This document shows, piece by piece, positions 13,758-43,707 of a stretch of DNA of 64,000 nucleotides. The first letter of the stretch is position 1. The number at the start of each line of letters is the position of its first letter. A program made the position numbers and the translations under genes. The stretch covers positions 42,086 through 106,085 of IMG/VR virus record IMGVR_UViG_3300037421_000080. The stretch is one strand, 5' to 3'. The notes below the pieces were generated by a model. The model searched no databases. It was not told the origin of the DNA and saw only the letters and a list, made by a program, of their open reading frames with translations. Source of the stretch: a virus (Duplodnaviria; Heunggongvirae; Uroviricota; Caudoviricetes).

Positions 13758-16700
13758 ATGGCGACATTCGGGAATACAGCAGTTGGCGGATCTCAGGACG
13801 TCTATCCTATCGCCAACTACCTCTTCGCCTATGGGCCGTTCGTGCCCGCTGGTAATGGCACGATCCAGTCCCTTTCCATCAACATCAAGGACGTGGGAAC
13901 TGCATCAAACATCCAGTTGGCCCTCTATACAGGCAGCTCTACAGCTCCGGATACAGGCACGTTGGTGGCCAAGACGGCCAGCATAGCCATTGCCACTGGT
14001 CCGAACACAGGCGTCACGCTAACTACCCCGGCGATCACCGGCGGGATGAATTACTGGATCTGCATTGAATCGGACGGGACCTGCCATCCAGCTAGCACTT
14101 CCGGCTTCGGGCTTGGCTATGAATCCTATGCCTCGTCGGCATTTGGCGTTTGGCCAGCCATGATGCCGACGACCTCGTTCATCACCCACGATCTTGCTAT
14201 CACTGTCTATGGAACCTACACTCCGACCTCTGGGATTGTCCTCAGTCCAACTACGCTTGCTAATGGGGACAACGGCACGCCCTATCTCCAGACGCTTACT
14301 GCAACAGGCGGAACAGCTCCTTACGCCTTCACGCGAACAGCAGGGACACTACCTACTGGGGTAGTGCTGAGCACTGTCGGTGTACTGAGCGGAACGCCGT
14401 CCTCTACGGCTGCTTTCACATTCACAATAACAGCTACGGACAACGTTTCTGCGACTGGCCTCCAGGCGTATACCGTCACGATCAATGCAGCGGTGTCGAT
14501 AACGACGGCTTCCCCGTTGACGGGTGGTAACACAGGAGCGGCCTACAACCAGACTCTCGCAGCTACGGGAGGCAGTGCTTCCTACACATGGTCCACGACG
14601 AGTGGTACGTTGCCTACAGGAATAACCCTGAGCACGGCGGGAGTGCTGAGCGGCACGCCTACCGTAGTAGGGGTCTACACATTCGTGGCGACAGCGACGG
14701 ATACATTGGGCGGAGTCGGCAACAAGAGCTTCTCGCTGACCATCACGCAAGTTATCTTGCTGTCTCCAACTATGCTGCCTTCCGACACAGTCAATACTGC
14801 CTACAACCAGACGCTCACGGCTTCCGGTGGAACAGGACCGTACACCTTCGCCAAGACAGCTGGAACTCTGCCCACGGGCATCACTATCAGCACAGCAGGA
14901 GTGCTGAGCGGTACGCCTACTGTCCTAGGGATGTTTACCTTCACGATCACTGCCACGGATAGCCTCTCTGCCACTGGAGCCCAAGCTTACACGGTAAACA
15001 TCAATGCGGGGAAGACGGTCCTGCAAGCCTCCGACTTCACTTACCAAGGATTTTACTTTATCCCAGGCGACGACAGAGCTTACAATGTTGGCCTGACTCA
15101 TCGCTATGTGAATAATCAACTTCAACTTCTCATGGAGGATTTTAATAGTTACCAGTTTGATATAGTCGCTTTCACCTTACCGAGCGGGGGATTTGGTTCT
15201 ACCATCACTGATCCTTTCCTGTACAGATGGCCTGGTGCGGCCGTCTGGGCTTTTAAGCCAGCCACTCATGCTTCAAGCCACTTCACGAACATCTGGTACG
15301 AAGACCTGGGCAGTGGCAACAATCGGCTCTGGGGCAGCCAGGGGATTGTCTATCCGACCACTGGTGTGGATCCCACCGTCGGGCCTTACAATTCAGATTT
15401 CCTCTGCGAAGCGATCAGCGTCCGAACTTTGCACAATGACAACACAGTGACCGGAGCCGCAGGGCTCTGGGGCCTCCAGGATCCCTACAACGACACCTTC
15501 AAATTGGGCGGACCGAACAACGCAGGAATCAGCCAGCGGTGTCTCTATGGTAAAGTGCAGCCAATTCCCAGCTGGTTCCAGACTCTTTACAGTGTGCCTC
15601 CCTACTTGCTGGGAGCAGGCGGGCAGGCATCTTTGGCGGCACAGGCAGGTATCTGCTCTTTCGGCTTGTTTCTAGCAGCGGTTCCCCTCCTGACCACTTA
15701 CGTGCCGCCCTTGAACTATTCCTATGGAGGATACAACGGAGACGGAAGCGATTGGGTTGTTCCATCTACCGACTTCAAGATACTGGCCGACCATCGACTA
15801 GGCACCAGGCAGGGCGACTGGTACATAACACCGGGAACTCCGAGTACGTTCGATCGTGGGATCAAGATCACTTCGGAGCTGAACTACTATGACCACTCGC
15901 CGGGGGGGACTCAGGCTTACTACTTTGCCTTTCCCACATCGAACACAGCGACGATAACCAGTGATAATCCTGCGAAAGTGATATTCAACCTCCCCCAGCC
16001 CACGCCTCCTTATTTGCCATTCGTTGCTGGTGATTTCATTTACGTTCACGGCTTCTTACCTGTAGCGATCGCATCTGTAACCGATGCTCGCAACGTCACA
16101 CTGGTCTCCTCCTATGCTGGTGCTCCTCTGACGAACGTTGAGTGGGGCTTCCTTTGCAATCCAGCTAACTTGCTAGCCAATGGGGCGCAATGGACCTCTC
16201 CAGCCCCAGACGGATTCAACCGCTGGGCAGAGACCGATAGCTACTTCGGAGGAGCTGAATGGATTGACGGGTCCACCAAGACAGGCATTGTCTGTGTCGG
16301 ATCCTTCTCCAAAGGCAAGCAGTGGTATCCCTATGGATCACCTGAATCCGACGACAGCGGATTTGAGATTCATGTCTACGATCCAGCCGATCTAGGATCT
16401 GTGCTTGCAGGCAGCAAGAATCGCTGGAATGTGCAGCCTGCTTCCATGAAGGACATCACTGGAGACTTCCACGATAAGCTCGTAGGAGGAAGTCGCAACA
16501 CAAATATCTCTTGCCCGGTGGGCCAGACATTCGTTCCAGGGGTTGCAGATCCTACAATCGGAACATTGTACGTCTTAGTGAATGGTTGCTCTCTTGGGGG
16601 CAACCTCGGATCTATCCTGCTGGCCTACTCAGTCAACATGGGAGCCAGTGCCATCTCCCTCAGTCCATCTTCTTTGGTTAGCTGGACAATCAGCAAATCC

Positions 16701-18737
16701 GGCTACAGCCAGACAATCACCGCATCTGGTGGGACTTCGCCCTACACCTACGCGATCACTTCCGGCAATGCGCCCACGGGCTTGACTTTTAGCACTGCTG
16801 GTGTCTTCTCCGGAACGCCTACCGCTGCTGGCACCTTCGCCTTCACCGTCACCGCTACGGACAACGCCTCCCTAACCGGGAGCCGGAACTATAGCATCGT
16901 AATCAACCCAGCCATCGTCGTAGTGCCCACCAATCTTCCTGTTGGGACAGTCAGCGTCTCCTACAATCAGACTATCTCCACTACAGGGGGTACAGGGCCA
17001 TTTACATTCGCCAAGACAGCCGGCACGCTGCCAACGGGCCTGAGCATAAACGCCTTCGGGACATTGTTTGGGACTCCTACAGTCGCGGGCAGCTATACCT
17101 TCACAATCACAGCGACGGACACTCCGGGGGCTACCGGAGCCCGAGCCTATACAGTCGTCATCAACGGCCTGGTCATTACTCCAACATCTCTTCCCAACTG
17201 GACTGCGGGCAAATCAGGCTATCTCCAGACCCTCGTTGCCACGGGCGGGACCCCGGCCTACACCTATGCCACTGGAGGGCTACCGACTGGACTGACCCTG
17301 GTTGGCAGTACAGGAGTAATCTCTGGAACTCCCACAGTTGCCGGGACCTACCCCTTCACGGTGACAGTGACGGATTCCCTCTCTGTCATAGGATCCCAAA
17401 ATTACAGTGTCACGATCAACGCAGCGATTGTGCTAGCGCCCACAACCCTTCCAGCTGGGATCACTACAATCCCCTACAGCCAGACGGTGGCAGCTACGGG
17501 AGGGACAGGAACACTGACATTCTCTGTAACGGTGGGAGCCTTGCCAACTGGTCTGACCATAAGCACTGCTGGCGTCATCTCCGGGACCCCGAACGCAGCG
17601 GGTGCCTTTCCGTTCACGATCACTGCTACAGACACAGTTGGCGCTACGGGCATCCAGGCGTATTCAGTAGCCATCACGGTCATCCCGCCTCAGCCTGCTC
17701 CACCCATTGTGACACAGTATGTCAACTATGTCATGGTGCAGGGGACGGATACCGTCCTGCTCTACTCTGGAACTTCTCCTGTCGATGGATTCTCAATGCA
17801 GTTCCAGGCCAAGCACCGGTTCGAGGGGAACTCCGGACTTATCGAGTGCTTCGGGGCTCCGGGCTACAACGGCATCTCTGGCATAGCCGTAATCAACAGT
17901 GGGCTAGGGCAGGCTCAGATCATCCTGCCCAACTGGATGACCAGCGGTCGACCTCCTGGATCCTACGCTTATGACTTGCGGAGGACGGACGCCGGGAAGC
18001 AGAGGATATTGGAGATCGGGCTGCTGGAGATCCTGCCTAACACTAGCAATACGCCCGATCCTCCTAGAGTCATTCCAGCTGGATCGACTGTCCTCGTCTG
18101 GGACTCCTTGCAGGACATCGACGGGACTCTGCTTCTCAACCACGGAACCCAGTTCGGGCCTAGCTGGTATGCACCTTTTGGCGGAGCGGGGAAGGGCTTC
18201 GTCATCAAGGACAACCGCTGCTATTACACATTCGTGCAATCATCGGCGGCTGCCCTAATCAATGTGAACAACGCTCCAGTCAGTAATGTGGGGGGTGTCT
18301 CTGTCCCCGCGAACTGCACAATGGCGGTCGTAATCAACTTTGGTGGGAACCCAGCTACGGATATTGAAGTCATTGCTGTGGAGGACAGTCTGACCATTCC
18401 GGGCGATGGGATATTCATAAGGTTAAACTCTGGAACGAACAAGTTCGATATCTATGATGGGACTGCTGCTACGGTTCTGATCTCCATCCCGTTTACCGTG
18501 GGGCTCTACACGGATTATACGATCTCAGTCACCACTGCTGGATTCAATCCTCTGGCTCCGCAGCAGGGGGGCGGAACTATTACTGCTACGATCAATGGAG
18601 GCAGTAAGATCATCGCGACAGCAGCAAGCCGCATTGGGAGCACCAGTTATGGGTCCGGGTTTGGGGTTGGAGTGTCTCTGTTCTCCAGTAACAGCAACGG
18701 TGAGAACTTCCGGGTCTTGTCCATCGTACAGCCGTAG
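13758..18737 (+). CDS. giant tail fiber/adhesin with tandem putative-Ig (Cadg/He_PIG-like) repeats
   Basis: 1659 aa. At least 10 repeats of ..TLPTG(L/I)TLSTAGV(L/I)SGTPT..G.Y.FT.TATD.. Confidence 0.7.
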   Translation: MATFGNTAVGGSQDVYPIANYLFAYGPFVPAGNGTIQSLSINIKDVGTASNIQLALYTGSSTAPDTGTLVAKTASIAIATGPNTGVTLTTPAITGGMNYWICIESDGTCHPASTSGFGLGYESYASSAFGVWPAMMPTTSFITHDLAITVYGTYTPTSGIVLSPTTLANGDNGTPYLQTLTATGGTAPYAFTRTAGTLPTGVVLSTVGVLSGTPSSTAAFTFTITATDNVSATGLQAYTVTINAAVSITTASPLTGGNTGAAYNQTLAATGGSASYTWSTTSGTLPTGITLSTAGVLSGTPTVVGVYTFVATATDTLGGVGNKSFSLTITQVILLSPTMLPSDTVNTAYNQTLTASGGTGPYTFAKTAGTLPTGITISTAGVLSGTPTVLGMFTFTITATDSLSATGAQAYTVNINAGKTVLQASDFTYQGFYFIPGDDRAYNVGLTHRYVNNQLQLLMEDFNSYQFDIVAFTLPSGGFGSTITDPFLYRWPGAAVWAFKPATHASSHFTNIWYEDLGSGNNRLWGSQGIVYPTTGVDPTVGPYNSDFLCEAISVRTLHNDNTVTGAAGLWGLQDPYNDTFKLGGPNNAGISQRCLYGKVQPIPSWFQTLYSVPPYLLGAGGQASLAAQAGICSFGLFLAAVPLLTTYVPPLNYSYGGYNGDGSDWVVPSTDFKILADHRLGTRQGDWYITPGTPSTFDRGIKITSELNYYDHSPGGTQAYYFAFPTSNTATITSDNPAKVIFNLPQPTPPYLPFVAGDFIYVHGFLPVAIASVTDARNVTLVSSYAGAPLTNVEWGFLCNPANLLANGAQWTSPAPDGFNRWAETDSYFGGAEWIDGSTKTGIVCVGSFSKGKQWYPYGSPESDDSGFEIHVYDPADLGSVLAGSKNRWNVQPASMKDITGDFHDKLVGGSRNTNISCPVGQTFVPGVADPTIGTLYVLVNGCSLGGNLGSILLAYSVNMGASAISLSPSSLVSWTISKSGYSQTITASGGTSPYTYAITSGNAPTGLTFSTAGVFSGTPTAAGTFAFTVTATDNASLTGSRNYSIVINPAIVVVPTNLPVGTVSVSYNQTISTTGGTGPFTFAKTAGTLPTGLSINAFGTLFGTPTVAGSYTFTITATDTPGATGARAYTVVINGLVITPTSLPNWTAGKSGYLQTLVATGGTPAYTYATGGLPTGLTLVGSTGVISGTPTVAGTYPFTVTVTDSLSVIGSQNYSVTINAAIVLAPTTLPAGITTIPYSQTVAATGGTGTLTFSVTVGALPTGLTISTAGVISGTPNAAGAFPFTITATDTVGATGIQAYSVAITVIPPQPAPPIVTQYVNYVMVQGTDTVLLYSGTSPVDGFSMQFQAKHRFEGNSGLIECFGAPGYNGISGIAVINSGLGQAQIILPNWMTSGRPPGSYAYDLRRTDAGKQRILEIGLLEILPNTSNTPDPPRVIPAGSTVLVWDSLQDIDGTLLLNHGTQFGPSWYAPFGGAGKGFVIKDNRCYYTFVQSSAAALINVNNAPVSNVGGVSVPANCTMAVVINFGGNPATDIEVIAVEDSLTIPGDGIFIRLNSGTNKFDIYDGTAATVLISIPFTVGLYTDYTISVTTAGFNPLAPQQGGGTITATINGGSKIIATAASRIGSTSYGSGFGVGVSLFSSNSNGENFRVLSIVQP

Positions 18738-18747
18738 GATTTGAGTT

Positions 18748-21700
18748 ATGGCCAAGCTATCCATAGTCGCCGGAGCGACCTCTGAGACGGTTGATATATT
18801 CATCCAGGACAGCCGGCAGACAGTAGTCACCGGACTTCCTGGCCTGGTGTACAACTCCTCTGGCTTGACCTGTTATTACAACTTCCGCCGTGGAGCTTCT
18901 ACCTCTGTCACGCTGGTAACTCTTGTAGCAGCTACGTCAGCTTGGTCGAGCGGTGGTTTCAAGGAGATTGATTCCACAAATCAACCAGGGAAGTATCGCT
19001 TCGACATCCCCAATGCCCTCCTGGCCTCTGGGAACGGCCGCTACGTCGGCATCTACTTCCAAGGAGCGACGAATATGTCCCCCTGCTGGATAGAGATTGA
19101 GCTGACGGGACCAGACAACCAAGTAGCCACGAACTTCGGGCTGAGTGCTCTGCCGACTGCGAATCCAGGTGGATCGGGTGGGTTGGTAATTGACGGAGTC
19201 AATACGGCGGCGATCTCGTTCACTGCCGGTGTAACATTCAGCAACGCAGGAGGCGACGTTTTCACTATCACTAGTTCTGGGGGCAATGGCAACGGAATTG
19301 TGGTGGCAGGGAATGGATCAGGCAATGGCCTTAAGGTAACGGCAGGAGCAACCGGTACAGGGGCAATCTTCAATGGCGGGGCTACTTCGGGTGATGGGGT
19401 TGATATTATATGTCCAGCAAATGGCAGTGCAGCACTATCAATATTAGGCAATGGAGGGAATGCGGATGGTATGGTAGTCCAAGGCCACGGATCTGGAGAT
19501 GGAGCTCTTTTCAACAGTGGGGGCTCTGGGGGTAATGGCATCACTTGCCAGGCGCATGGCACAGGATCAGGCATCAGCGCTTTAGGAGGCACTGGAAATA
19601 CTGGGGATGGTATTCGGGCTAACACCAACTCGACCACGGGTCACGGAATCAATGCTATTGGTAATGGTGCGGGTCACGGATTCAAGAGCACTGGGGGAGC
19701 GACTGGATCAGGCATTAACGCCATTGGAGGAGCTACCTCCGGCCCAGGATTGACAATTACAGGCACAAACGACACTGCGATTTCAGTGGTAGCTGGAGGC
19801 ATCGCAGGAAATGGATTGTACATCGCTGGATCTGGTAGTGGGTCTGGCATCTATTGCACTCCTGGCTCCACAGGTGCCGGGATAGTTTTGTTAGGCGGAT
19901 CCTCTTCCGGTCAAGGAATGGTCATCGTCACTGCTTCTGGGAATGGTATCGACATCACCCCAGTTGGAGGGCATGGCGTCAATGTGGTAGCGAACGGTTC
20001 AGGAAATAACGGACTCAATCTTGTAGGAGCCGGAACAGGATCAGGCATCAAGACGGATAAAATCACAACCTCCGGGGCAGTCGTTTTCGGCTCCTCATTT
20101 ACTGTTACAACCACAACCACATTAACTGGAGCCGTCTCTGCCGCAGCTGGCGTAACATTCAGTAACGCATCCGGAGACGCTTTTGTTTGTTCTAGCTCTG
20201 GAGGAAATGGTAACGGAATTAACATCTCCGCTAACGGTTCTGGAACAGGAGTGAAGGTAGCAGCAGGAGCTACAGGTATCGGATTATCCGTAGCGGGGGG
20301 CAGCTCTTCCGGAGTAGGCATTTCTGTCACCACTACTTCTGGCAATGCAATTAACGTTCTGCCGACTGCTGGGCATGCTCTCGTATTGACGGCTAATGGC
20401 AATACAAAATATGGACTTCGAGCAACTGGCGGTTCCGGGGCAGCTAGCTACGGGGCAATCTTTGCCGCAGGAAGTGGATCAAATGGGGGAGGCATAAGCA
20501 TTGTTGGCGATGGAGGTGGGGATGGAATTGATATTTTAGCAGGTAGCACTACTGGTATCGGGGTGTCTATTGCTGGTGGGGGCACTTCTGGGGTGGGGTT
20601 GAGTATCACTACAACTTCCGGAGACGGGATCTCTATCTTGCCCACAGCGGGCCATGGGATTACAATAACGGCAAATGGCAACAAGAATGGTTTGAACATC
20701 TCTGGATCTGGATCAGGTCATGGCATCATATCCACAGCCGGAGCTACAGGCAATGCTCTCACTCTAGTTGGAGGTGGAACATCTGGGGACGGGCTCAACG
20801 TCACCACCACTCTCGGCCACGGCTTCAACATAACTGCCTCTGGCTCCGGTAAGCATGGCATCACTTCCACAGGAGCCGTCGCCGTCACCACCAGTCCAGC
20901 TGGACATGGCCTCAACCTGGTTGGTGGAGCCTCCTCGACCGGAGCTGGCGGGGCCGCTGGAATAGGCTTGAAAGCTATTGGCGGAGCAGGATCCGCCTCC
21001 ACCAACGGGGCTGGGGAGGGTATTACGCTCCTTGGTGGCGGAACCACCACCGTCTCCGGAGCGAATGGCCTGTCCTCTACTGGAACAGGGAACCTCAATG
21101 GCTTCTCTCTGGTCGGGGCCGGGACGGGCGTTGGCCTCTCAACGACTGTGAGCTTCGGCGCTGCCCTTGCCTCCACCTTCTGGAAGGATATAACAGCTTC
21201 CGACTTCTCGACTTTGAATAGTCCGGGCAACATCCTGGTGAACCAGCTGGGGGGCACATTCACCACGACCTCCTCCAGTATCTTCAACGCTGCCTCCCTC
21301 CAGAATGCTCCAACAGGCGGAGGTGGATCGACAGCCTTCGCTATCTGGTCTGACCTGCTTACCAATCCGGAGTTTGCCGTCCCCGGCAGCGTCGGGCAGC
21401 AGGTCGCCCTGTCCCTACCACGCATCACTCCGGGGGCCGTGGTAGTCAATAGCTATCTCGGGGCTACGGGAACAATCACGATCTATCGCTCCAGCGACAA
21501 CTTCGCCGCCGACGGCCGGTCCCTGGACATTCCAGGACCCAGTGTCAACTACTGGCCAAGCCTCTCCGGAGCTACTATAGCCCTGTATGTGGATGGCAGC
21601 CAGCTCTGTGTTGGGTCTGTGGTGACTCCGACGGGGAACCAGGTGATCCGCTTCGAGCCGAGTGCCCTCCAGACGGGCAGGTTCGCCCCGACAGTGCATT

Positions 21701-21792
21701 CCTATGTTGCCTGGGCGACACTCACTGATGGCCACTTCGTGCCTCTGGCCAGCGGACAGTTCGTGGTGCTCAACTCTCAGGGTGGGCCTTGA
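18748..21792 (+). CDS. tail fiber with long glycine-rich periodic repeats
   Basis: 1014 aa. Dozens of GNG.G..V.A.GSG.GL.. units. Opposite-strand ORFs here are shadow ORFs. Confidence 0.65.
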   Translation: MAKLSIVAGATSETVDIFIQDSRQTVVTGLPGLVYNSSGLTCYYNFRRGASTSVTLVTLVAATSAWSSGGFKEIDSTNQPGKYRFDIPNALLASGNGRYVGIYFQGATNMSPCWIEIELTGPDNQVATNFGLSALPTANPGGSGGLVIDGVNTAAISFTAGVTFSNAGGDVFTITSSGGNGNGIVVAGNGSGNGLKVTAGATGTGAIFNGGATSGDGVDIICPANGSAALSILGNGGNADGMVVQGHGSGDGALFNSGGSGGNGITCQAHGTGSGISALGGTGNTGDGIRANTNSTTGHGINAIGNGAGHGFKSTGGATGSGINAIGGATSGPGLTITGTNDTAISVVAGGIAGNGLYIAGSGSGSGIYCTPGSTGAGIVLLGGSSSGQGMVIVTASGNGIDITPVGGHGVNVVANGSGNNGLNLVGAGTGSGIKTDKITTSGAVVFGSSFTVTTTTTLTGAVSAAAGVTFSNASGDAFVCSSSGGNGNGINISANGSGTGVKVAAGATGIGLSVAGGSSSGVGISVTTTSGNAINVLPTAGHALVLTANGNTKYGLRATGGSGAASYGAIFAAGSGSNGGGISIVGDGGGDGIDILAGSTTGIGVSIAGGGTSGVGLSITTTSGDGISILPTAGHGITITANGNKNGLNISGSGSGHGIISTAGATGNALTLVGGGTSGDGLNVTTTLGHGFNITASGSGKHGITSTGAVAVTTSPAGHGLNLVGGASSTGAGGAAGIGLKAIGGAGSASTNGAGEGITLLGGGTTTVSGANGLSSTGTGNLNGFSLVGAGTGVGLSTTVSFGAALASTFWKDITASDFSTLNSPGNILVNQLGGTFTTTSSSIFNAASLQNAPTGGGGSTAFAIWSDLLTNPEFAVPGSVGQQVALSLPRITPGAVVVNSYLGATGTITIYRSSDNFAADGRSLDIPGPSVNYWPSLSGATIALYVDGSQLCVGSVVTPTGNQVIRFEPSALQTGRFAPTVHSYVAWATLTDGHFVPLASGQFVVLNSQGGP

Positions 21793-22513: not shown

Positions 22514-23371
22514 CTAATAGCACGCCGTGTCTACCACTTCCCCACCAGCCCTCGTGCTGAGAGGGATCGTAGCTGCTGCTCCTCTATATCCTATCCATCG
22601 TACTGACCCATCCACAAAGGCCCAATTCCCGCCATCTCTATGTGGGCTCCAGAAGTGGGTAGAAGCGCAGGGATCCTCGTACTCCCCAGGTCCGTACACA
22701 TTAGGACCGGGACATGGCCCGTAAATGGGCACGTTGCTCTGGGTCGCCATCAGGTTATCGTAATCGCTGAAGGCCCACCAGCCCCAATACAGCTCCGGAG
22801 AAGGCGGTCTCTCGCCGATCATCAGAGTGGTTGAGGCACCGTCCCTCACATCCAGCAGCCTGATCCCCTTCGCCAGACTGGTATCAAATGCTCCGTTCGT
22901 TGGAGTAGCATCGCAGTTCATCGTTGTGCCCACCACACCGCAGTAACTAGTCATTCCAAACGTGCCTGTCTCCGCCCAGCTCGTTCCAGAGAAGCCGGTC
23001 ACCAGATCACGCGGATCGCTGGGGCACAGGAGCAGTGGGATCGCATTGCCGGAGAAGACCATGAAGGATACGTCATCCAGAGTGTAGTCCTGGAGATCCT
23101 TTTGGTCGATGAAGGGCAGGAGCCTCCACATCCAGCCCCGCCTATCGGTGAAGAAGCCTGGGTCGTCCCTTGCTGGCGGAAAGTAGCTGAACTGGTCGTG
23201 ATAGGCGTGAACGGCCATTGCGAGCTGCTTCATGCTGCTTTGGCAGGTGCAGCGGTTGGCTGCTTCCCGTATCTTCTGGACGGCAGGCAGGAGCAGGCCG
23301 ATCAGGATCGCTATGATGGCGATGGAGACGAGAAGCTCGAATATCGTGAAGGCAGGTCGAAGGATAGGCAT
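22514..23371 (-). CDS. DUF1559 / prepilin-type N-terminal methylation-domain protein (Planctomycetes H-X9-DG family)
   Basis: N-term FTIFELLVSIAIIAILIGLLLPAVQKIREAANR = class III signal/pseudopilin helix. C-term H..HRDGGNWAFVDGSVRWI = H-X9-DG motif. Confidence 0.75.
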   Translation of the reverse strand: MPILRPAFTIFELLVSIAIIAILIGLLLPAVQKIREAANRCTCQSSMKQLAMAVHAYHDQFSYFPPARDDPGFFTDRRGWMWRLLPFIDQKDLQDYTLDDVSFMVFSGNAIPLLLCPSDPRDLVTGFSGTSWAETGTFGMTSYCGVVGTTMNCDATPTNGAFDTSLAKGIRLLDVRDGASTTLMIGERPPSPELYWGWWAFSDYDNLMATQSNVPIYGPCPGPNVYGPGEYEDPCASTHFWSPHRDGGNWAFVDGSVRWIGYRGAAATIPLSTRAGGEVVDTACY

Positions 23372-23459
23372 TGAGGATCTCTCCGAAATAAGGTAGGCGA
23401 GAGCGAAGGGATTCGGAGAGGGAGGATTTTCATCTCGCGGGGTTTCGTTTCTCCTTTCT

Positions 23460-23489
23460 ATTGTATTTGATCGGGATAGGTTGGGTCAA
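23460..23489 (-). promoter_or_regulatory. sigma70-like promoter (TTGACC-18-TACAAT) for the DUF1559 gene
   Basis: On the minus strand: cgaTTGACCcaacctatcccgatcaaaTACAATag, about 90 nt upstream of the start codon. Confidence 0.4.
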
Positions 23490-24214
23490 TCGGTAGGAAC
23501 TTCTATCTTCAAACTCCACTCAAAGTGAGTCATCGGCAGCCATCCCTGGACGTAGACCGTATTGAAGAAGGCCGTGAAGGGAACAGGGAATTGCCAGTCC
23601 GCGAACTGTTTCAAGCCCTTGACCAGATCAGGATCCTCGGTGACTTTCGTTCCCAAGAGATCGTCCAGCTCTTGAGATATTTTGCTCTTCGTGACTCCAG
23701 ATTCAATCAATATGACATCAAGGATGGCAACTAGCCCGTAGAGGAGATGCTCCGTTCCGACATAGTTGTTGTTCCTACTGGAAGCGAAGTGCAAGGCATG
23801 CTCAATCACTTTTTTGGAAAGAGGCCCTTGGGGCAGCTTGGAGAAAATACCACCTTCCTGTTTTACAGGCAAGTAGCTCTCTGGCTTCCTTTCTCGGCAT
23901 GCCTTCTGAGTCAATTCTGGAGAGACGCCCATTCTTCGTAGGAGCGTTCCACCTACGCTGTTCTTGTCGTCACAGATGCCGTAGAGGATATGATTTGGTT
24001 GCACGGCGGACCAGCCCCATTCCTTGGCGACCTGGTTAGCCTTCTGCATCACCTTGCGGGCACGGTCGGTGAAGCGTTCGTACAAGTTTGTTCTCCGAAA
24101 ATGAGACCCGATCCCGCCAGCATATTTTCCCCTGCCGCGAAGCTGGTTTGGAGCCAGCTTTACTAGAACAGAGTTATTTCGCTGGCGGGGCAGCATGGTG
24201 AGGGTCCAGCCCAC
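23486..24214 (-). CDS. Clp N-terminal (Clp_N) double-repeat domain protein
   Basis: ERFTDRARKVM...EWGWSAVQPNHILYGI and a second repeat LSKKVIEHALHFASSRNNNYVGTEHLLYGLV match the ClpA/ClpC N-domain repeats. No AAA+ module. True start may be internal. Confidence 0.55.
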   Translation of the reverse strand: MGWTLTMLPRQRNNSVLVKLAPNQLRGRGKYAGGIGSHFRRTNLYERFTDRARKVMQKANQVAKEWGWSAVQPNHILYGICDDKNSVGGTLLRRMGVSPELTQKACRERKPESYLPVKQEGGIFSKLPQGPLSKKVIEHALHFASSRNNNYVGTEHLLYGLVAILDVILIESGVTKSKISQELDDLLGTKVTEDPDLVKGLKQFADWQFPVPFTAFFNTVYVQGWLPMTHFEWSLKIEVPTD

Positions 24215-24274: not shown

Positions 24275-25924
24275 TTATTCAACTGCAAAGTTCGAGATCA
24301 CAGTTGGCGTATCCGTGGAGAAACCTACACAATCAAGCATCCCCGAGTCGGATGGATCCGCCAGGGAGAATCCGTTGGAGGTCATGCCCACGACTACCAG
24401 CTTGGCCGGAATCCCCATCTTCTGGCGATACTGGTCCAATGCTTGGACTGGTTGGATTTCACCGGCCCATGTCTCGCTATCGGTGTAGATGCAGAACACA
24501 TCCACCTTCAGCTTCTGGTCCATCGCGTAGAGCATCGGTAGGGCGCAGTCGGTCCCGCCCATCGGTAGGGCAGCCATCGCCCGGCAAACATCGTCCAGCC
24601 GTTGGCGCGGGGAGATCGGCAGCGTGGTGATTCCGTTGTTGTACCCCATGCTGGAATACTGGCCCCGGCCCCCGTTGCGGCACCAGCCGTTGCTGGTGAA
24701 TGCGACGAAGGCGTGCTGGGGCTCCACCGCCGCAGTCACCAGGGCCATCGCCCCGCTGGCGACGCGGGCGCTCAGGAAAGTTCCGGCGATATGAGATCCT
24801 TCCATCGACCCGGAGACATCTAGGGCCAGCAGCCACCGCTTATTGGTGGGCTCTACAGAATCGAACGCCAGGTAAAAGGCGCCGTCTAGGGCGTCCACTA
24901 CCTGGGCCACTGGGCTCCATGTGTTCTGCCCCTTCTCTCCCCGGCCCTGAGCATAGGTTTTCAACGCCAAGAGAAGAGCCATCGGATGGACGCGGGCCTT
25001 GCGAATCCACTCCTTGTTTGACAGAGAGGAAACCACCTTGGCGGTCCCATCGGAGAGCGGATCCAGCAGACCAACTCGCGTCATGGTTGCCAGGTTGCGA
25101 ACCAGGGCCGTCAGGGGCATCTTCTCCAGCAAGGCTTCCCAGACGCTGGCTTCCGTCAGAAACTGCGTCGGGATGCACTCGCGGGGCAAGTTGTATTCCC
25201 GGATTAGCTTGCAGATCTCTTTCTTGTCCTTGGAGCGCTTGGCCTTTTCGAATGCCCAAATGATCTTGAGGGCATCTTCCGGATGCTCCTCCTCCCCGAT
25301 TCTCTCCCAGCCCTTGACTGCCCAGTGGAAGATGGAGTTCATCGGTTCGTTTGCCTGAGCATGGCAGAGGCGCAGAAGATCTCGATGGCTCCAGCCGTTG
25401 CGATTCTGGTACTTTACGACTCCATAGGCCAATTTATCCGGAGCCTGGGACGTGTACCATCCAGCGACCATCGAACGCAGGGAGCGTCCCCAGCCCCGGA
25501 AGTTCTGGACGGCCTCACAGAACTGGAAGATATGGGTTCCAATGCGGCAGATCTTCGGCAGAGCCTCCGCTACTCCGAACGTAGCTGCCTTTTTGTGGCC
25601 TGCTGCCATCGCCAGGGCGAAGATAGCTGGATCGTTTTTGGGGGCTTTGCCTCCATCGCTAATCTCCACGATCCGTTTGACAACGCGAGCTCCGTCTTCG
25701 TCGAGTAGCTTCTGGACGACCTTGGCGTTTTCGATGGTGAGCTTCTTCTCGGAAGCATAGAAGCTACCTTGGCTCGCGCCCAAAATGAGGAAGCGATCCA
25801 ACCGCTTCCAATCATCGACGGCGAAGGAGTAGCCCCCGGCCGAGTTCTGGACCATCGGCTTTCCCGGGATCGGCTCCGACTGAGGAGTAACGCGGGTGGA
25901 GAAGTGCTTGCTGTAAACGGTCAT
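24275..25924 (-). CDS. rsr: Ro60-like (Rsr) TROVE + vWA/MIDAS protein
   Basis: N-terminal TROVE block MVQNSAGGYSFAVDDWKRLDRFLILGASQGSFYASEK..VVKRIVEIS..PKNDPAIFALAMAA. C-terminal vWA with DVSGSMEG MIDAS. Start chosen at ATG 25924 (AAGGAGG SD) rather than the upstream in-frame Met. Confidence 0.75.
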   Translation of the reverse strand: MTVYSKHFSTRVTPQSEPIPGKPMVQNSAGGYSFAVDDWKRLDRFLILGASQGSFYASEKKLTIENAKVVQKLLDEDGARVVKRIVEISDGGKAPKNDPAIFALAMAAGHKKAATFGVAEALPKICRIGTHIFQFCEAVQNFRGWGRSLRSMVAGWYTSQAPDKLAYGVVKYQNRNGWSHRDLLRLCHAQANEPMNSIFHWAVKGWERIGEEEHPEDALKIIWAFEKAKRSKDKKEICKLIREYNLPRECIPTQFLTEASVWEALLEKMPLTALVRNLATMTRVGLLDPLSDGTAKVVSSLSNKEWIRKARVHPMALLLALKTYAQGRGEKGQNTWSPVAQVVDALDGAFYLAFDSVEPTNKRWLLALDVSGSMEGSHIAGTFLSARVASGAMALVTAAVEPQHAFVAFTSNGWCRNGGRGQYSSMGYNNGITTLPISPRQRLDDVCRAMAALPMGGTDCALPMLYAMDQKLKVDVFCIYTDSETWAGEIQPVQALDQYRQKMGIPAKLVVVGMTSNGFSLADPSDSGMLDCVGFSTDTPTVISNFAVE

Positions 25925-25968
25925 GCTAGCCTCCTTCGGCTGTAAAAGGAGAAAGAGAAGTATTCCCA

Positions 25969-26260
25969 TGGACAAAAACTTGTATCAAGGGGGTATCTTA
26001 ACAGGATAACCTTGACAACAAACGGCCCATAGGGAATGTCAAAAAGCGAGGACAAGTTTTTGCAATGGGGTACATTTTAGCAGATAACCCATTACTCCGG
26101 CCCTCACGAATACGCGATCAAATAGTGCGGACAAAAATTGCCGTTGGGTATGCCGGGACTTTCACCCAGCTGTCTTTTTGCAGAAGATAACCAACATGCG
26201 TCCGGCCCACACAAGCTTCGTTGTTTCAAAATAGCACGGACAAAAGTAGATGTCCGGTTT
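25969..26260. repeat. tandem array of ~78-bp imperfect repeat units (3 full + 1 partial) with conserved blocks GGACAA..TTG..GGGTA..GATAACC..CGGCCC
   Basis: Units start about 25972, 26052, 26130 and 26238. Noncoding, immediately 5' of rsr on the minus strand. Confidence 0.5.
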
Positions 26261-26291
26261 TACTGTGCAGCCATCACACTCCAGCTAGTTA

Positions 26292-26337
26292 CCCAGCTGC
26301 CGGGAATCGAACCCGGTCTAGTCCTTTTTCAGAGGAG
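26292..26337 (-). ncRNA. tRNA 3'-portion-like element: anticodon-type stem-loop (CU-GAA-AA, Phe-like), 4-nt variable region, T-arm (CCGGG-TTCGATT-CCCGG) and 7-nt 3' acceptor strand, but no 5' acceptor/D-arm partner
   Basis: Manual fold of the minus strand. Candidate attP-type tRNA fragment, tRNA pseudogene or Y-RNA module. Confidence 0.3.
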
Positions 26338-26362
26338 AACAGACACCAAACGGCCCGTGCAT

Positions 26363-26453
26363 TGGGGGCAATTGGGATCGAACCGATAATCCTGGACTTC
26401 GACTCGGTTTCCCGAATAAGCTAGTGTTCAGGTGCCCTACCAGGGCTGCCCCC
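26363..26453 (-). ncRNA. tRNA-like structured RNA candidate (possible Y-RNA-like tRNA mimic)
   Basis: 91 nt with a perfect 7-bp acceptor-like terminal stem GGGGGCA/TGCCCCC, a T-arm (ATCGG-TTCGATC-CCAAT, one C.A mismatch) abutting the 3' strand, a D-like hairpin GCCC-tGGta-GGGC and an internal GAAA tetraloop hairpin. No anticodon arm. Confidence 0.35.
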
Positions 26454-26839
26454 TGAAAATCCTCGGTAACTTTGGAAAGCAGATCCAGCGTAGGTTTTCA
26501 ACAAAGCAAGGCGCAGATAAAGTTCGCCAGTGGGTTTTACTGAATTTCTCTACGCTTTCTCCGATTCCCTCAGTCGCCGAAGTTGGGAAATCTCCCGCTC
26601 ATCAGAGATAATCCACTGACATCGACCCCGTACCTTGCAGTCGCGGTTCTGGGGGATGCTCCCAGCAGTCCAAGGTTATGAGCCTCGAATGGGCACTGGC
26701 CCAACCGCAGTCAATTGGCGGACAAGGTAATGCTAGAGGAGTAACAGCCAAGGTAATCCTCTAACTCCGGCCCGCCAGTATTCCATTATAGTATGACACC
26801 GAAACGGCGAAAAGGTTATGGGTTTCTTTCCTTTTTTTA

Positions 26840-27025
26840 TTATCGGCTCTGCTCCAAATCAGCCAAACGACGGTTGAAGAAAGCGATCGTCGTCTTCAAG
26901 TTCAAGATCTCCATCTGCTTCTTACGCTCTGGGTACAGCAGATTCTCTAGTCTTTGCACTTCCTTCTCCAGCTCGTCGACTCTGCGTCGGTGGGGGCAAT
27001 TAGGATCGCCGCAATCTCCGAACAT
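26840..27025 (-). CDS. small Cys/His zinc-binding protein
   Basis: 61 aa, CGDPNCPH motif. Confidence 0.4.
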   Translation of the reverse strand: MFGDCGDPNCPHRRRVDELEKEVQRLENLLYPERKKQMEILNLKTTIAFFNRRLADLEQSR

Positions 27026-36250: not shown

Positions 36251-36321
36251 AGGCCCCCAGAAGGATTTGAACCCTCGCATCCTGGATACAAGCCAGGCGC
36301 TCTACCTCTGAGCTATAGGGG
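36251..36321 (-). tRNA. tRNA-Thr (anticodon UGU)
   Basis: Manual fold. Acceptor GCCCCUA/UGGGGGC 7 bp, D-arm GCUC-AGAGGUA-GAGC, anticodon arm CCUGG-CUUGUAU-CCAGG, variable AUGC, T-arm GAGGG-UUCAAAU-CCUUC, discriminator C. CCA not encoded. Confidence 0.8.
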
Positions 36322-36397
36322 CAAACAGCGGAGGCTAGTAACCAGCCGCCCCCGCTGAGTCCTGTACAGACACAATCTGAACAGAGACCGGTTCGTA

Positions 36398-42357: not shown

Positions 42358-43707
42358 CAGAAGCCAAACCCCCGAGCTAGTTCTGCTTTCTTCAAGCGCC
42401 GATGCCCCATTTCAATGTATTCCTCTGATAAGTCTATCCCGATAAACCTCCTACCGCGAGTGATCGCTACAATGCCTGCGGTTGCCGATCCCGAGAATGG
42501 ATCGCAGATAATCGCTGGCACCGGATCACTTGCGTTGCATTTGCAAGTGGGCTCCCATCCAATTGTCTTCGTGGTCGAAACGTGACGTTCGAGGTCACGA
42601 TTGCCGATTACAGAACCTAGGGTAGTTTTGGTTGAAGTTCCGGACCTTTGGAATCTTGGATCCAATTGTCCTATTTTTCTGTTTTTGAGTATCTCTTTGA
42701 TCTTGCTTTCCCTTCCCGGCCGAGTAGGAGTGCGAGTCTTTTCTAGTATTCGCTTCCACGGGGATCCACAGGCTTTGCAAATTCCTTTTTGGCTAGATCC
42801 CGCCAAAATACAGCGCAACGCAAGCTTTTTGGGGAAGGGAGCGAAGTGGGCCTCCTTCAAGCCGCCTTCATGAGACATGTGCCAGACATCACGACAGAAA
42901 CTTTTGTTTTGGTCGTTTGGATCATGCTTGGTTCCTATTCCTCCGGTAATGAACCCATTCTTTTTCAACTCGACCTTCTTGTTGTTGCCGGCACTTCTCT
43001 CCCAATTCCAGTTGCTCTTTGACCTCTCCATAATCGCCACGTGGTCGAAGTAGTATTTAGACTTCTTGGCGAATAGGAATATGTGTTCGTGGGATTTAGT
43101 ACAGCGATTCGTTACGCTCTCAGGCATGGCCCCGGCTTTGCTCCAGATGATTTCTTGGCGGAGGATCCAACCGTCAGCTTGCATTGCGAAAGCAAATCGC
43201 CAAGGAACGCCTATTAGGTTTCCCGATTGTAAATCACCGAGCAAAGGCAGATGATTGTCGTTATCCTCTCCATACCTTCTACCAACATTTCCACTTTGTT
43301 TGGTTCTTTTTGAAGAAGAATTGTAGCTGTCACCGAGATTCACCCAACATGTCCCAGTGGGATGAAGAACTCTACAAATCTCCCGAAATATCTCGACTAG
43401 CTTTTGTACGAATTCTTCGGGAGTTTCTTCTTGGCCCAGTTCAAGTGGTTTATCCGGATGATCGTCGGGGAGATAACTACGAAGACGCCAGTCAATAAGG
43501 GGGACTAGTAACGACACAATTTACACTTTCATCAGGTAAAGTTTTCAACATGTCGATAACGTCCCCCTGGAGCAACCTACTATGCTTCGTTCGGCGCTCT
43601 TTCATGATATCACCTCCTTTCTGGAGCGTAGAGTGCTTGGTCTTCCTTACGATGCCTTTGGTGCCCACACACCCTCCCGAATTTCGTGCCAAGGGGCTTT
43701 GTTCCAC
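42357..43707 (-). pseudogene. DNA N6-/N4-methyltransferase (DPPY, ParB-MTase type) interrupted by a +1/-1 frame change right after the SPPY motif
   Basis: N-piece 43492..43707 ends ..DESVNCVVTSPPY*. Continuation 42357..43517 in another frame carries ...DPFSGSATAGIVAITRGRRFIGIDLSEEY (motif I region). C5 run and TATTGAC at the junction. Confidence 0.55.

What the first reader, a model, noticed from the sequence alone, without database searches (positions are those of the whole stretch)
26363..26453. 91-nt tRNA-like element with perfect acceptor-type stem and T-arm but no anticodon arm (Y-RNA-like tRNA mimic candidate)
On the minus strand a perfect 7-bp terminal helix (GGGGGCA...TGCCCCC, then A) encloses a D-like hairpin GCCC-uGGua-GGGC, a GAAA-tetraloop hairpin, and a T-arm AUCGG-UUCGAUC-CCAAU stacked directly on the 3' acceptor strand. 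No anticodon stem-loop can be drawn. Bacterial YrlA-type Y RNAs contain exactly this kind of tRNA-like module (acceptor/T/D elements with the anticodon arm replaced) and are encoded next to rsr, which lies 440 bp away on the same strand.
Basis: seen in the sequence. Interest (0 to 1): 0.65.

Follow-up and report, generated by a model that had tools for sequence, protein, structure and literature searches.

The report
tRNA-shaped Y RNA next to rsr
A 91-base RNA gene beside the Ro60 (rsr) gene has the two ends and elbow of a tRNA, but its anticodon arm is replaced by a hairpin that looks like a Ro60-binding site, so it is probably a compact member of a widespread class of tRNA-topology Y RNAs that I did not find described in the papers I could read.

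Summary
At 26363-26453(-) there is a perfect 7-bp acceptor helix, discriminator A, a short D-like hairpin with a GG loop, a GAAA-capped 42-nt hairpin and a T arm with a consensus T loop (one C·A mismatch in the stem). It lies 439 nt upstream of rsr on the same strand. It is not a tRNA: ARAGORN and Rfam do not call it. It sits inside an array of about six Y-RNA-like hairpins. A genuine YrlA-like RNA with a closed acceptor starts 2 nt after it. Across 245 Rsr loci I found more than 180 same-strand elements with true tRNA topology whose anticodon arm is a closed hairpin. That hairpin carries the Ro-binding motifs in reversed order (UUGCC-loop-GGGCCG, then UUAUC) and shows strong covariation. The flagged element maps onto compact members of this family: a C bulge, a CGAAG/CUU core, compensated helix pairs, and AUUAUC abutting the T stem. 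A short-form covariance model built without it ranks it first in the window (38.8 bits). Real tRNAs can score as high, and the hairpin alone scores only 6 bits, so membership is probable, not proven. It most likely acts as an Rsr-tethering tRNA mimic matured by RNase P and RNase Z, which would also free the neighbouring YrlA.

The parts
26363..26453 (-). The whole flagged 91-nt tRNA-topology element
   Evidence: Sequence. Full-length match to the family models: R1 30.8 bits and R3 38.8 bits, the top hit of the window.
26447..26453 (-). Acceptor 5' strand GGGGGCA
   Evidence: Forms 7/7 Watson-Crick pairs with 26364-26370. Locus L100 797-902 has the identical acceptor.
26363..26370 (-). Acceptor 3' strand UGCCCCC plus discriminator A (26363); no CCA is encoded
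   Evidence: The only real tRNA gene in the window also lacks an encoded CCA.
26434..26446 (-). D-like hairpin GCCC-UGGUA-GGGC, joined to the acceptor without the U8/N9 linker; the loop keeps the GG
   Evidence: The GG is invariant in all 16 short-form relatives (A5). The same linker-less design occurs in L100, L074, L161 and L166; L171 has a 1-2 nt linker.
26391..26432 (-). 42-nt closed hairpin replacing the anticodon arm. It has a base stem CCUG/CAGG, a second stem AC/GU, an asymmetric internal loop, and a terminal 6-bp helix capped by GAAA.
   Evidence: Constrained fold. It aligns in the same register to the family Ro-type hairpin in R1, R2 and R3.
26397..26403 (-). GUCGAAG, which matches the published Rsr-recognition motif GNCGAAN0-1G / CGAA. 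C26401 is the single bulged C, and GA pairs with the UU of CUU (26418-26420).
   Evidence: Motif definition from PMC4201824 and PMC12135203. Descriptor match with a 6-bp helix.
26385..26390 (-). AUUAUC, the family's (G/A)UUAUC motif (YrlA's YUAY), here overlapping the T-stem 5' strand
   Evidence: A2/A5 consensus GGUUAUC. L009 also has AUUAUC. Compact relatives join UUAUC directly to the T stem.
26371..26387 (-). T arm AUCGG-UUCGAUC-CCAAU (C·A mismatch at the third pair)
26234..26360 (-). Neighbouring YrlA-like Y RNA of normal topology: Ro stem GCACGGGCCG.../...UUUUGUCCGUGC, V hairpin, T arm CCGGGUUCGAUUCCCGG, closed acceptor CAGCUGG-GUAA-CUAGCUG, and D-like hairpin. It starts 2 nt after the flagged element's discriminator.
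   Evidence: Fold. Rfam tmRNA/permuted-tmRNA T-arm hits. GGTTCGATTCC match.
26715..26779 (-). Y-RNA-like hairpin 1 (GGGCCGGAG ... CCUUGUCC)
   Evidence: Rfam RF01656 (nematode stem-bulge RNA), 32.1 bits, E 2e-4. Pattern match. Fold.
26125..26212 (-). Y-RNA-like RNA 3 (GUGUGGGCCGGA ... UUUUUGUCCGCAC)
   Evidence: Fold.
26046..26108 (-). Y-RNA-like hairpin 4
   Evidence: RF01656, 20.5 bits. Pattern match. Fold.
25962..26037 (-). Y-RNA-like hairpin 5, directly upstream of the rsr ribosome-binding site
   Evidence: Pattern match. Fold.
24275..25924 (-). rsr (Ro60 orthologue, 549 aa)
   Evidence: Pfam TROVE 3.9e-48 and vWA_Ro60 5.7e-62. More than 8000 homologues.

Best explanation
The element is a compact, divergent member of a large family of Y RNAs that keep true tRNA topology. 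They have an open 7-bp acceptor stacked on a T arm, a D-type hairpin that supplies the GG for the elbow, and a closed hairpin in place of the anticodon arm. That hairpin carries the Ro60-binding bulged helix.

Proposed mechanism, inferred except where marked. The element is transcribed with the other Y RNAs as one array upstream of rsr. RNase P cuts at G26453. RNase Z, or an equivalent 3' pathway, cuts after discriminator A26363, because no CCA is encoded. This releases a 91-nt L-shaped RNA and at the same time creates the 5' end of the YrlA-like RNA that starts 2 nt downstream. The hairpin limb (C bulge, CGAAG paired to CUU, 6-bp helix, GAAA cap) docks on the outer face of the Rsr ring as in other Y RNAs. 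The tRNA elbow and acceptor end form the exposed effector module, which could be recognised by tRNA-binding enzymes and possibly receive CCA.

Shown here: the sequence anatomy, the genomic context, the existence and covariation of the family, and the register in which the element aligns to it. Inferred: transcription, processing, Rsr binding and the effector role.
For: Context: the element is on the same strand as rsr, 439 nt upstream. It lies inside an array of Y-RNA-like hairpins that share GGGCCG...UUGUCC; 3 pattern matches were found against 0.36 expected, and Rfam stem-bulge-RNA hits support two of them.

Family: a descriptor scan and model R1 find 97 hits of at least 60 bits in 80 genome loci (61 of them are seeds), 63 in 85 metagenome and nearest-relative loci, and 27 in 80 viral loci. 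Nearly all are on the rsr strand. Real tRNAs reach at most 55.9 bits.

Family structure: 93.9% of cells are paired against 81.8% in shuffles. There are 267 double-change cells against 56 in shuffles, and the slid controls pair at 33-50%. The hairpin-only alignment gives 93.3% against 84.4%.

The element itself: R1 gives 30.8 bits, full length. R3, a short-form model built without it, gives 38.8 bits, E 2e-7, rank 1 in the window, above the real tRNA-Thr at 26.2 bits. All three models place CUU-AUUCGG/GAAA/CCGAGU-C-GAAG in the Ro-helix register with standard pairs. GUCGAAG fits GNCGAAN0-1G and CGAA.

Its deviations from GGGCCG are each seen in relatives and are compensated. GAGCCG with U:A at A4 pair 26-50 occurs in 9 sequences. 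GGGUCG with U:A next to the bulge occurs in L164.

The Ro-helix descriptor matches 51/76 seeds and gives only 3.1 hits per 128 kb of shuffled sequence, yet it hits this hairpin with a 6-bp helix.

Compact relatives share the same design. L100 has the identical acceptor and a Y RNA starting 2 nt after it. Others are L171, L074, L161 and L166.

Precedent: D. radiodurans makes a Yrn2-tRNAAsp-Yrn1 polycistron, and M. smegmatis YrlA is cut by RNase P and receives CCA.
Against: The hairpin alone is not recognised. Model R2 does not find it with default filters and gives only 6.2 bits with filters off, which is not significant at window scale.

Scores of 31-39 bits on R1 and R3 are within the range of ordinary tRNAs (up to 55.9 and 45.2 bits). 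The covariance models therefore do not discriminate membership.

The element lacks the family's most conserved blocks: UAGCUCAG..GGUAGAGC and GGGCCG. All five clear Y RNAs of the same array keep GGGCCG, so the cognate Rsr may not accept GAGUCG.

The T stem has a C·A mismatch and overlaps the UUAUC motif.

The tRNA-like fold is not the MFE.

The only other copies of the locus are 100% identical, so there is no conservation or covariation evidence for this particular compact variant. There are no expression data.
Confidence: 0.55

Rival explanations
1. It is purely a processing signal. The tRNA-like acceptor/T minihelix exists only to recruit RNase P and RNase Z, so that the polycistronic Y-RNA precursor is cut into units, in particular to make the 5' end of the adjacent YrlA-like RNA. 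The excised 91-mer would be a by-product that does not bind Rsr. The hairpin would be just a stable spacer.
For: The discriminator is 2 nt from the first base of the YrlA Ro stem. L100 has the same arrangement. Elements are packed 4-10 nt apart in L161 and L164, like tRNA operons. No CCA is encoded, as in the window's real tRNA. A real tRNA plays this position in D. radiodurans. The hairpin is not significantly family-like by R2.
Against: A pure RNase P/Z handle needs no C-bulge/CGAAG/CUU geometry and no (A/G)UUAUC motif. Both are present in the family register. Long-form relatives conserve the Ro-type hairpin strongly, so the class as a whole is more than punctuation. This reading is not exclusive with the best explanation.
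Confidence: 0.25
2. It is a decaying copy (pseudogene) of a long-form tRNA-topology Y RNA or of a tRNA. It was shortened by deletions in the D arm, the hairpin and the variable region, and no longer functions.
For: U8/N9 and most of the D arm are missing. GGGCCG is lost. There is a C·A mismatch in the T stem. UUAUC is fused to the T stem, as if about 8 nt had been deleted between two AUC repeats. Model scores are low relative to bona fide members at 60-114 bits.
Against: Every helix is still intact: 7/7 in the acceptor, 4/4 in the D-like hairpin, and 4+2+7 pairs in the hairpin with a GNRA cap. The differences from relatives in the Ro helix are compensated rather than disruptive. Independent lineages carry similarly compact versions of 96-106 nt, which argues for a selected short form.
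Confidence: 0.15
3. It is a real but aberrant tRNA gene, or a tRNA 3' fragment kept as a phage attachment site.
For: It has a perfect acceptor, a consensus T loop and discriminator A. The window looks phage-like and phages often carry tRNA-derived att sites.
Against: It has no anticodon arm. ARAGORN is silent and Rfam tRNA gives no hit at E<=10. Both acceptor strands are present, so it is not a 3' fragment. It is embedded in the Y-RNA array on the rsr strand.
Confidence: 0.03

Closest known systems
YrlA (bacterial tRNA-like Y RNA; Chen et al. 2014 PMC4201824; Wang et al. 2018 bioRxiv 10.1101/312249)
   Same: Both are encoded near rsr on the same strand. Both have a tRNA-like T loop and a D-loop GG for an elbow, a GNCGAA-type Rsr motif, a YUAY/UUAUC motif between the Ro stem and the T arm, and an acceptor-like helix.
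   Different: The topology is the circular permutation. YrlA has its ends in the Ro stem and a closed acceptor (T comes before D). This element has open acceptor ends and a closed Ro-type hairpin (D comes before T), like a real tRNA. The published papers call YrlA a 'circularly permuted tRNA'. The form seen here is the non-permuted one.
[quoted passage not shown]
   Same: The end product has an open 7-bp acceptor with tRNA-like 5' and 3' ends attached to a Ro-binding stem. It shows that tRNA enzymes act on Y RNAs.
   Different: There the open acceptor is produced by cutting a closed loop, which gives a two-piece RNA. Here a one-piece RNA with that architecture is encoded directly.
D. radiodurans Yrn2-tRNAAsp-Yrn1 polycistron (PMC4201824)
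   Same: A tRNA-shaped unit sits between Y RNAs upstream of rsr and is co-transcribed with them. tRNA processing would separate the Y RNAs.
   Different: That unit is a genuine decoding tRNA. This one has no anticodon arm.
b7a-tRNA (Burroughs and Aravind 2016, known to me only as cited in 10.1101/312249)
   Same: It is a predicted tRNA-like ncRNA of RNA-repair loci that is occasionally encoded next to Rsr.
   Different: It is described as strongly resembling an authentic tRNA. I could not read the paper, so I cannot say whether it includes a Ro-type hairpin. This is an untested lead.
tRNA-like processing modules such as mascRNA at the MALAT1 3' end and the MHV68 tRNA-miRNA units (from my own knowledge, not checked here)
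   Same: These are non-decoding tRNA-like structures used to recruit RNase P or RNase Z so that a neighbouring ncRNA gets its end.
   Different: They are eukaryotic or viral nuclear systems and have no link to Ro60. An Rfam mascRNA hit at 16.7 bits falls on the neighbouring YrlA T arm, not on this element.
Metazoan Y RNAs / nematode stem-bulge RNAs (Rfam RF01656)
   Same: They share a bulged-C helix GGNCCG(A)/UUG(N)CC and a (G)UUAUC motif. Neighbouring hairpins in the array hit RF01656.
   Different: Those are simple stem-loop RNAs with their ends in the Ro stem and no tRNA module. The flagged element itself does not hit RF01656.

Membership tests
tRNA (Rfam RF00005 / ARAGORN) | A 7-bp acceptor helix with a discriminator, stacked on a 5-bp T stem with a T-loop consensus | tested here: met
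   The acceptor is 7/7 Watson-Crick, the discriminator is A, the T loop is UUCGAUC and the T stem is 4/5.
tRNA (Rfam RF00005 / ARAGORN) | An anticodon arm (5-bp stem, 7-nt loop with U33) | tested here: not met
   A 42-nt GAAA-capped hairpin stands in its place.
tRNA (Rfam RF00005 / ARAGORN) | Detection by tRNA models | tested here: not met
   ARAGORN finds only tRNA-Thr at 36252-36322. Rfam gives no hit at the gathering threshold or at E<=10.
tRNA (Rfam RF00005 / ARAGORN) | U8/N9 linker and a D arm with a 7-11 nt loop | tested here: not met
   The D-like hairpin follows the acceptor directly and its loop is 5 nt, though GG is kept.
YrlA (Chen 2014) | Encoded within about 4 kb of rsr on the same strand | tested here: met
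   It lies 439 nt upstream on the same strand.
YrlA (Chen 2014) | The GNCGAAN0-1G motif in the Ro-binding stem | tested here: met
   GUCGAAG at 26403-26397. It lies on the 3' side of a closed hairpin rather than near the RNA 5' end.
YrlA (Chen 2014) | Module order 5'-Ro strand, V, T, closed acceptor, D, Ro strand-3' | tested here: not met
   The order here is acceptor 5', D, closed Ro-type hairpin, T, acceptor 3'. The neighbour at 26234-26360 does have the YrlA order.
YrlA (Chen 2014) | Binding to Rsr; psi55 and D modifications | not testable with these tools
   This needs RIP/EMSA and modification mapping.
tRNA-topology Y RNA family defined here (alignments A2/A5, models R1/R3) | Open acceptor plus T arm, on the same strand as rsr and adjacent to it | tested here: met
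tRNA-topology Y RNA family defined here (alignments A2/A5, models R1/R3) | A closed hairpin with the 3'-type strand YUUGYC, a loop, the 5'-type strand GRGYC-G with a bulged C, and then GNNG pairing back | tested here: inconclusive
   The geometry is present with compensated pairs and a descriptor match. The sequence is divergent: hairpin model R2 gives only 6.2 bits.
tRNA-topology Y RNA family defined here (alignments A2/A5, models R1/R3) | The (G/A)UUAYC motif after the hairpin base stem | tested here: met
   AUUAUC at 26390-26385, as in L009.
tRNA-topology Y RNA family defined here (alignments A2/A5, models R1/R3) | Canonical UA + GCUCAG..GGUAGAGC D arm | tested here: not met
   It is replaced by GCCC-UGGUA-GGGC. 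Reduced or missing D arms also occur in L100, L171, L074, L161, L166, L164 and L097.
tRNA-topology Y RNA family defined here (alignments A2/A5, models R1/R3) | A covariance-model score above what ordinary tRNAs reach | tested here: inconclusive
   R1 gives 30.8 bits; members score at least 60 and tRNAs at most 55.9. R3 gives 38.8 bits, rank 1 in the window against tRNA-Thr at 26.2, but tRNAs elsewhere reach 45.2.

The most novel reading that the evidence does not exclude
The flagged RNA and the more than 180 relatives found here would define 'tRNA-topology Y RNAs'. These are one-piece RNAs with genuine tRNA ends, D and T arms, whose anticodon stem has been converted into a closed Ro60-binding helix. 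They would be the non-permuted counterpart, and plausibly the ancestor, of YrlA. YrlA would arise from them by reading a tandem array out of register. Consistent with this, junctions between adjacent normal Y RNAs in this window score as permuted units. The RNAs would be matured, and possibly CCA-tailed, by the tRNA machinery. They often sit inside large tRNA arrays that surround rsr in bacteria and phages.
Probability: 0.4. Interest if true: 0.8.

Novelty: new variant of a known kind. Interest (0 to 1): 0.62.

Why it matters
Y RNAs are thought to descend from tRNAs. The published model derives YrlA from a dimeric tRNA transcript, because its T arm precedes its D arm. An abundant, covarying class that keeps the normal tRNA order and simply carries the Ro60 site where the anticodon arm should be would make that origin directly testable. 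It would also show how tRNA-processing enzymes can punctuate Y-RNA arrays. There is a practical consequence too: Rfam's tRNA model scores long-form members at about 50 bits and ARAGORN calls parts of them as tRNA-Leu or tRNA-Met, so they are probably mis-annotated as tRNAs in many genomes. For this window, it means the rsr locus of a probable large phage encodes a diversified set of about seven Ro60 partner RNAs with three different architectures.

Tried and rejected
1. Public detectors. ARAGORN, and Rfam 15 at the gathering threshold and at E<=10, find nothing on the element.

2. A true tRNA or a tRNA with an intron was rejected, because there is no anticodon arm.

3. Close relatives for covariation. 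The only other contigs with the same Rsr (L168, L169) are 100% identical over the locus. The next Rsr is only 65% identical. Two JGI contigs of the nearest relatives could not be fetched.

4. Hairpin-only model R2 did not find the flagged hairpin.

5. Models R1 and R3 do not separate the element from ordinary tRNAs.

6. blastn of the 870-nt array against 50,697 phage records gave no match. Actinophages carrying Ro (Sixama, JayJay) have no tRNA-topology members, only tRNAs and weak hits upstream of Ro in JayJay (about 24 bits) that may be its YrlA.

7. Literature. I found no paper describing an open-acceptor Y RNA. Burroughs and Aravind 2016 and the two Wolin reviews were not available, so prior description cannot be excluded.

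8. The promoter/terminator scan gave nothing decisive for the array.

Full report
**Observation.** On the minus strand, 26453->26363 reads GGGGGCA GCCC-UGGUA-GGGC A CCUGAACACUAGCUUAUUCGG-GAAA-CCGAGUCGAAGUCCAGG AUU AUCGG-UUCGAUC-CCAAU UGCCCCC A.
- The 7-bp terminal helix is perfect.
- The T loop matches the tRNA consensus, but the T stem has one C·A mismatch.
- The D-like hairpin follows the acceptor without a U8/N9 linker.
- No anticodon arm can be drawn.
- The ORF at 24275-25975(-) is Ro60/Rsr (TROVE 3.9e-48, vWA_Ro60 5.7e-62). Its likely ATG is at 25924, behind a GAAGGAGG Shine-Dalgarno sequence, 439 nt from the element.
- A strict descriptor (Watson-Crick 7-bp acceptor stacked on a T arm with G53-C61 and a consensus loop) hits only this element in the window. 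It hits 0.02 times per dinucleotide shuffle.
- Thermodynamics alone is weak evidence. The MFE is -36.0 kcal/mol, z = -2.4, and that fold lacks the T arm. The tRNA-like fold is -34.7 kcal/mol with the acceptor and T arm imposed.

**Not a tRNA, and not seen by public models.** ARAGORN calls one tRNA in the window, tRNA-Thr at 36252-36322. Rfam 15 finds only that tRNA at gathering thresholds. A permissive scan of 25900-27000 (E<=10) returns nothing on the element. That scan does return informative hits around it:
- Two matches to the nematode stem-bulge RNA family RF01656, at 26715-26779 and 26046-26108.
- tmRNA/permuted-tmRNA/mascRNA T-arm matches at 26265-26353.

**Surroundings.** The 870 nt between an upstream small ORF and rsr form an array of Y-RNA-like units on the rsr strand. 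All share a 5' GGGCCG(G/U) and a 3' UUGUCC. The pattern gives 3 matches against 0.36 expected, and the folds are.
- Hairpins lie at 26715-26779, 26125-26212, 26046-26108 and 25962-26037.
- A weaker candidate lies at about 26505-26634 (GGGGUCGAUG...).
- The unit at 26234-26360 has the full YrlA architecture described by Chen et al. 2014: Ro stem, V hairpin, T arm CCGGGUUCGAUUCCCGG, closed acceptor-like hairpin, D-like hairpin, Ro stem.
- The flagged element ends 2 nt before this YrlA-like RNA begins.

**Relatives.**
- The Rsr protein has more than 8000 homologues. Apart from identical copies, the closest is 65% identical.
- I fetched 80 loci from GTDB genomes, 80 from metagenomes, 7 from the nearest relatives and 80 from IMG/VR.
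- A descriptor for acceptor plus T arm that ARAGORN does not call found about 100 same-strand elements of 100-140 nt next to rsr.
- Their sequences show a tRNA frame: acceptor, UA, GCUCAG..GGUAGAGC D arm, AGGUC, T arm and discriminator. The anticodon arm is replaced by a long closed hairpin that reads ...CCUUGCCC-loop-GGGGCCG(N)(N)GG...GAUGG-UUAUC.
- These are the Y-RNA Ro-binding strands in reversed order, so the family is a circular permutation of YrlA. Put differently, YrlA, which Wang et al. 2018 call a circularly permuted tRNA, is the permuted form of this family.
- Long forms carry an extra small hairpin whose 7-nt loop often reads CUNNUAA. Short forms (103-109 nt) lack it.

**Family statistics.**
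- On a 61-sequence MAFFT alignment (A2), RNAalifold recovers the acceptor, the D stem, the hairpin stems and the T arm.
- For my 31-pair structure, 93.9% of cells pair against 81.8% in shuffles. There are 267 double-change cells against 56, and slid controls pair at 33-50%.
- Acceptor and T pairing were partly imposed by the descriptor. The D stem (98.8%) and the hairpin stems were not. Examples are pair 47-100 (AU 17, GU 13, GC 12, CG 11) and pair 52-93 (CG 38, UA 15).
- Model R1 finds 97 hits of at least 60 bits in the genome loci (61 are seeds), 63 in the metagenome and nearest-relative loci, and 27 in viral contigs.
- Genuine tRNAs reach at most 55.9 bits.
- Rfam's tRNA model scores long-form members at about 50 bits. 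ARAGORN called internal pieces of some as tRNA-Leu or tRNA-Met.

**Where the flagged element fits.**
- Acceptor and T stem: its acceptor and T-stem 5' strand equal those of short-form members L003, L007 and L009 (GGGGGCA / AUCGG). L100 797-902 has the identical acceptor, GGGGGCA/UGCCCCC.
- Compact relatives: versions of 96-106 nt exist in several lineages, namely L171 (viral), L074 (Gemmataceae MAG), L161, L166 and L100. In most the D-like hairpin follows the acceptor directly, and in all five UUAUC(G/A) abuts the T stem, as in the window.
- Hairpin mapping: the base stem is CCUG/CAGG and the second stem is AC/GU. An asymmetric internal loop follows. Then come U:G, a bulged C, and the helix AUUCGG/CCGAGU capped by GAAA. 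The 3' strand reads GUCGAAG.
- Motif: this satisfies the published Rsr motif GNCGAAN0-1G and the CGAA motif used for Thermus phage Yrl RNAs.
- Deviations from GGGCCG: each one occurs in relatives and is compensated. GAGCCG with a U:A pair occurs in nine sequences (A4 pair 26-50). GGGUCG with U:A next to the bulge occurs in L164, one of the closest Rsr relatives.
- Descriptor: a family-derived pattern (TT, helix of at least 4 bp, loop, helix, C bulge, G, 6-16 nt, TTA[TC]C) matches 51/76 seed hairpins. It gives 3.1 hits per 128 kb of shuffled sequence. It hits the flagged hairpin with a 6-bp helix.

**Model tests, stated plainly.**
- R1 aligns the element full length at 30.8 bits (E 3.5e-6), but the window's real tRNA scores 35.1. 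The tRNA frame dominates that model.
- A short-form model R3, built from 16 relatives without the window sequence, ranks the element first in the window: 38.8 bits, E 2e-7, with a posterior of about 0.93. tRNA-Thr scores 26.2.
- Ordinary tRNAs in tRNA arrays nevertheless reach 45.2 bits on R3.
- A hairpin-only model R2 (76 sequences) misses the flagged hairpin with default filters and gives 6.2 bits with filters off, in the expected register.
- Membership therefore rests on architecture, register, motifs, compensated pairs and context, not on a decisive score. I put it at about 0.55-0.65.

**Mechanism.**
- The polycistronic arrangement has precedent. D. radiodurans transcribes Yrn2, tRNA-Asp and Yrn1 together. 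M. smegmatis YrlA is cut by RNase P and receives CCA.
- The element has everything RNase P and RNase Z read: a 12-bp acceptor/T coaxial stack, a T loop, a D-loop GG for the elbow and a discriminator. It encodes no CCA, like the window's real tRNA.
- Cleavage after A26363 would leave the YrlA-like RNA with a near-mature 5' end. L100 shows the same 2-nt junction to a Y RNA.
- I therefore propose a dual role: a self-excising unit that punctuates the array, and a compact Rsr-tethering RNA whose exposed module is a tRNA elbow and acceptor end.
- The rivals are punctuation only (0.25), a decaying copy (0.15), and an aberrant tRNA or att fragment (0.03).

**Context and novelty.**
- The window is probably part of a large phage genome. 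It carries a family-A DNA polymerase and a DnaB-like helicase. Most large ORFs have no Pfam or PHROG match, and there is a single tRNA. A planctomycete-type DUF1559 gene sits nearby.
- Rsr homologues occur in at least 272 IMG/VR contigs and in 358 deposited phages, mostly actinophages. The two actinophage loci I examined (Sixama, JayJay) have no tRNA-topology members. This may explain why the class is absent from the papers I could read.
- Those papers describe YrlA as a permuted tRNA and propose a dimeric-tRNA origin.
- I could not read Burroughs and Aravind 2016 (b7a-tRNA) or the Wolin reviews, so prior description cannot be ruled out.
- I rate the finding a new variant of a known kind.

Noticed in passing
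window 25962-26779 (-): The whole rsr upstream region is an array of about six or seven Y-RNA-like units that share GGGCCG...UUGUCC. They come in three architectures: simple hairpins, a YrlA-like RNA, and the tRNA-topology element.
   Followed up: partly
window 26632-26712 (-): This segment folds (MFE equals centroid) into a cloverleaf. It has a 7-bp closing stem, a GGGC-CAGU-GCCC hairpin with no linker, a 7-bp stem with the anticodon-like loop CUCAUAA, and a 5-bp stem with a non-consensus loop AGCAUCC. The z-score is only -1.0 and neither ARAGORN nor Rfam calls it. It may be a second degenerate tRNA-like unit.
   Followed up: partly
window 26505-26634 (-): A candidate further Y RNA with GGGGUCGAUGUCAGUGGAUUAUC at the 5' side and CCCACUGGCGAACUUUAUCUGC at the 3' side. 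Its fold z-score is -0.2, so it remains unverified.
   Followed up: partly
loci L013, L025, L026, L027, L032, L037, L040, L041, L064-L066, L069-L071, L079 (and the deposited Gordonia phage Sixama, L250): In many relatives rsr sits inside or next to a large same-strand tRNA gene array, with up to 29 tRNAs within +/-4 kb. tRNA-topology Y RNAs are interspersed among the tRNAs. I found no paper linking tRNA arrays with Ro60.
   Followed up: partly
alignment A2 columns 105-125 (e.g. L006 2193-2313, L007 3042-3168): Long-form family members carry a small hairpin before the T arm whose 7-nt loop often reads CUNNUAA (CUCAUAA, CUAUUAA, CUGAUAA and others). This looks like an anticodon loop with U33, U36, A37 and A38. 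MAFFT aligns it poorly (61% paired). Its meaning is unknown.
   Followed up: no
window 26165-26288, 26083-26150, 26005-26070, 26186-26258 (-): Models of the permuted family score the junctions between adjacent normal-topology Y RNAs, meaning the 3' half of one unit plus the spacer plus the 5' half of the next (18.5, 16.1, 16.0 and 10.5 bits). This is what one expects if one topology can arise from the other by reading a tandem array out of register.
   Followed up: partly
window 26349-26371 (-): The element's acceptor 3' strand UUGCCCC, followed by the next RNA's GGGCCG, mimics a Ro-type helix across the junction (R2 7.1 bits, local match). This may be coincidence, or it may be an alternative pairing in the precursor.
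   Followed up: no
loci L012 1321-1441, 1489-1609, 2401-2528; L164 2476-2599; L048 3286-3409; L003 3288-3363; L007 3096-3168: Rfam's tRNA model scores long-form tRNA-topology Y RNAs at 50-52 bits, above its gathering cut-off. ARAGORN calls internal pieces as tRNA-Leu(cag) or tRNA-Met(cat). Such RNAs are therefore probably annotated as tRNAs in public genomes.
   Followed up: partly
window 43647-45143 (-), 60986-62389 (-), 13758-21792 (+), 22514-24214 (-): The window looks like a large phage. It has a family-A DNA polymerase, a DnaB-like helicase and huge Ig-domain ORFs, and most ORFs have no family match. Yet rsr is flanked by a planctomycete-type DUF1559 protein and a Clp_N-domain protein. 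The host is probably a planctomycete.
   Followed up: partly
locus L163 (P0009 contig), 2054-2983 and flanks: In one close relative rsr is preceded by a GIY-YIG/NUMOD3 homing-endonuclease-like gene. It is surrounded by T5orf172, ParB_N and integrase genes, and tRNA-like elements lie downstream of rsr. This is another mobile-element context.
   Followed up: no
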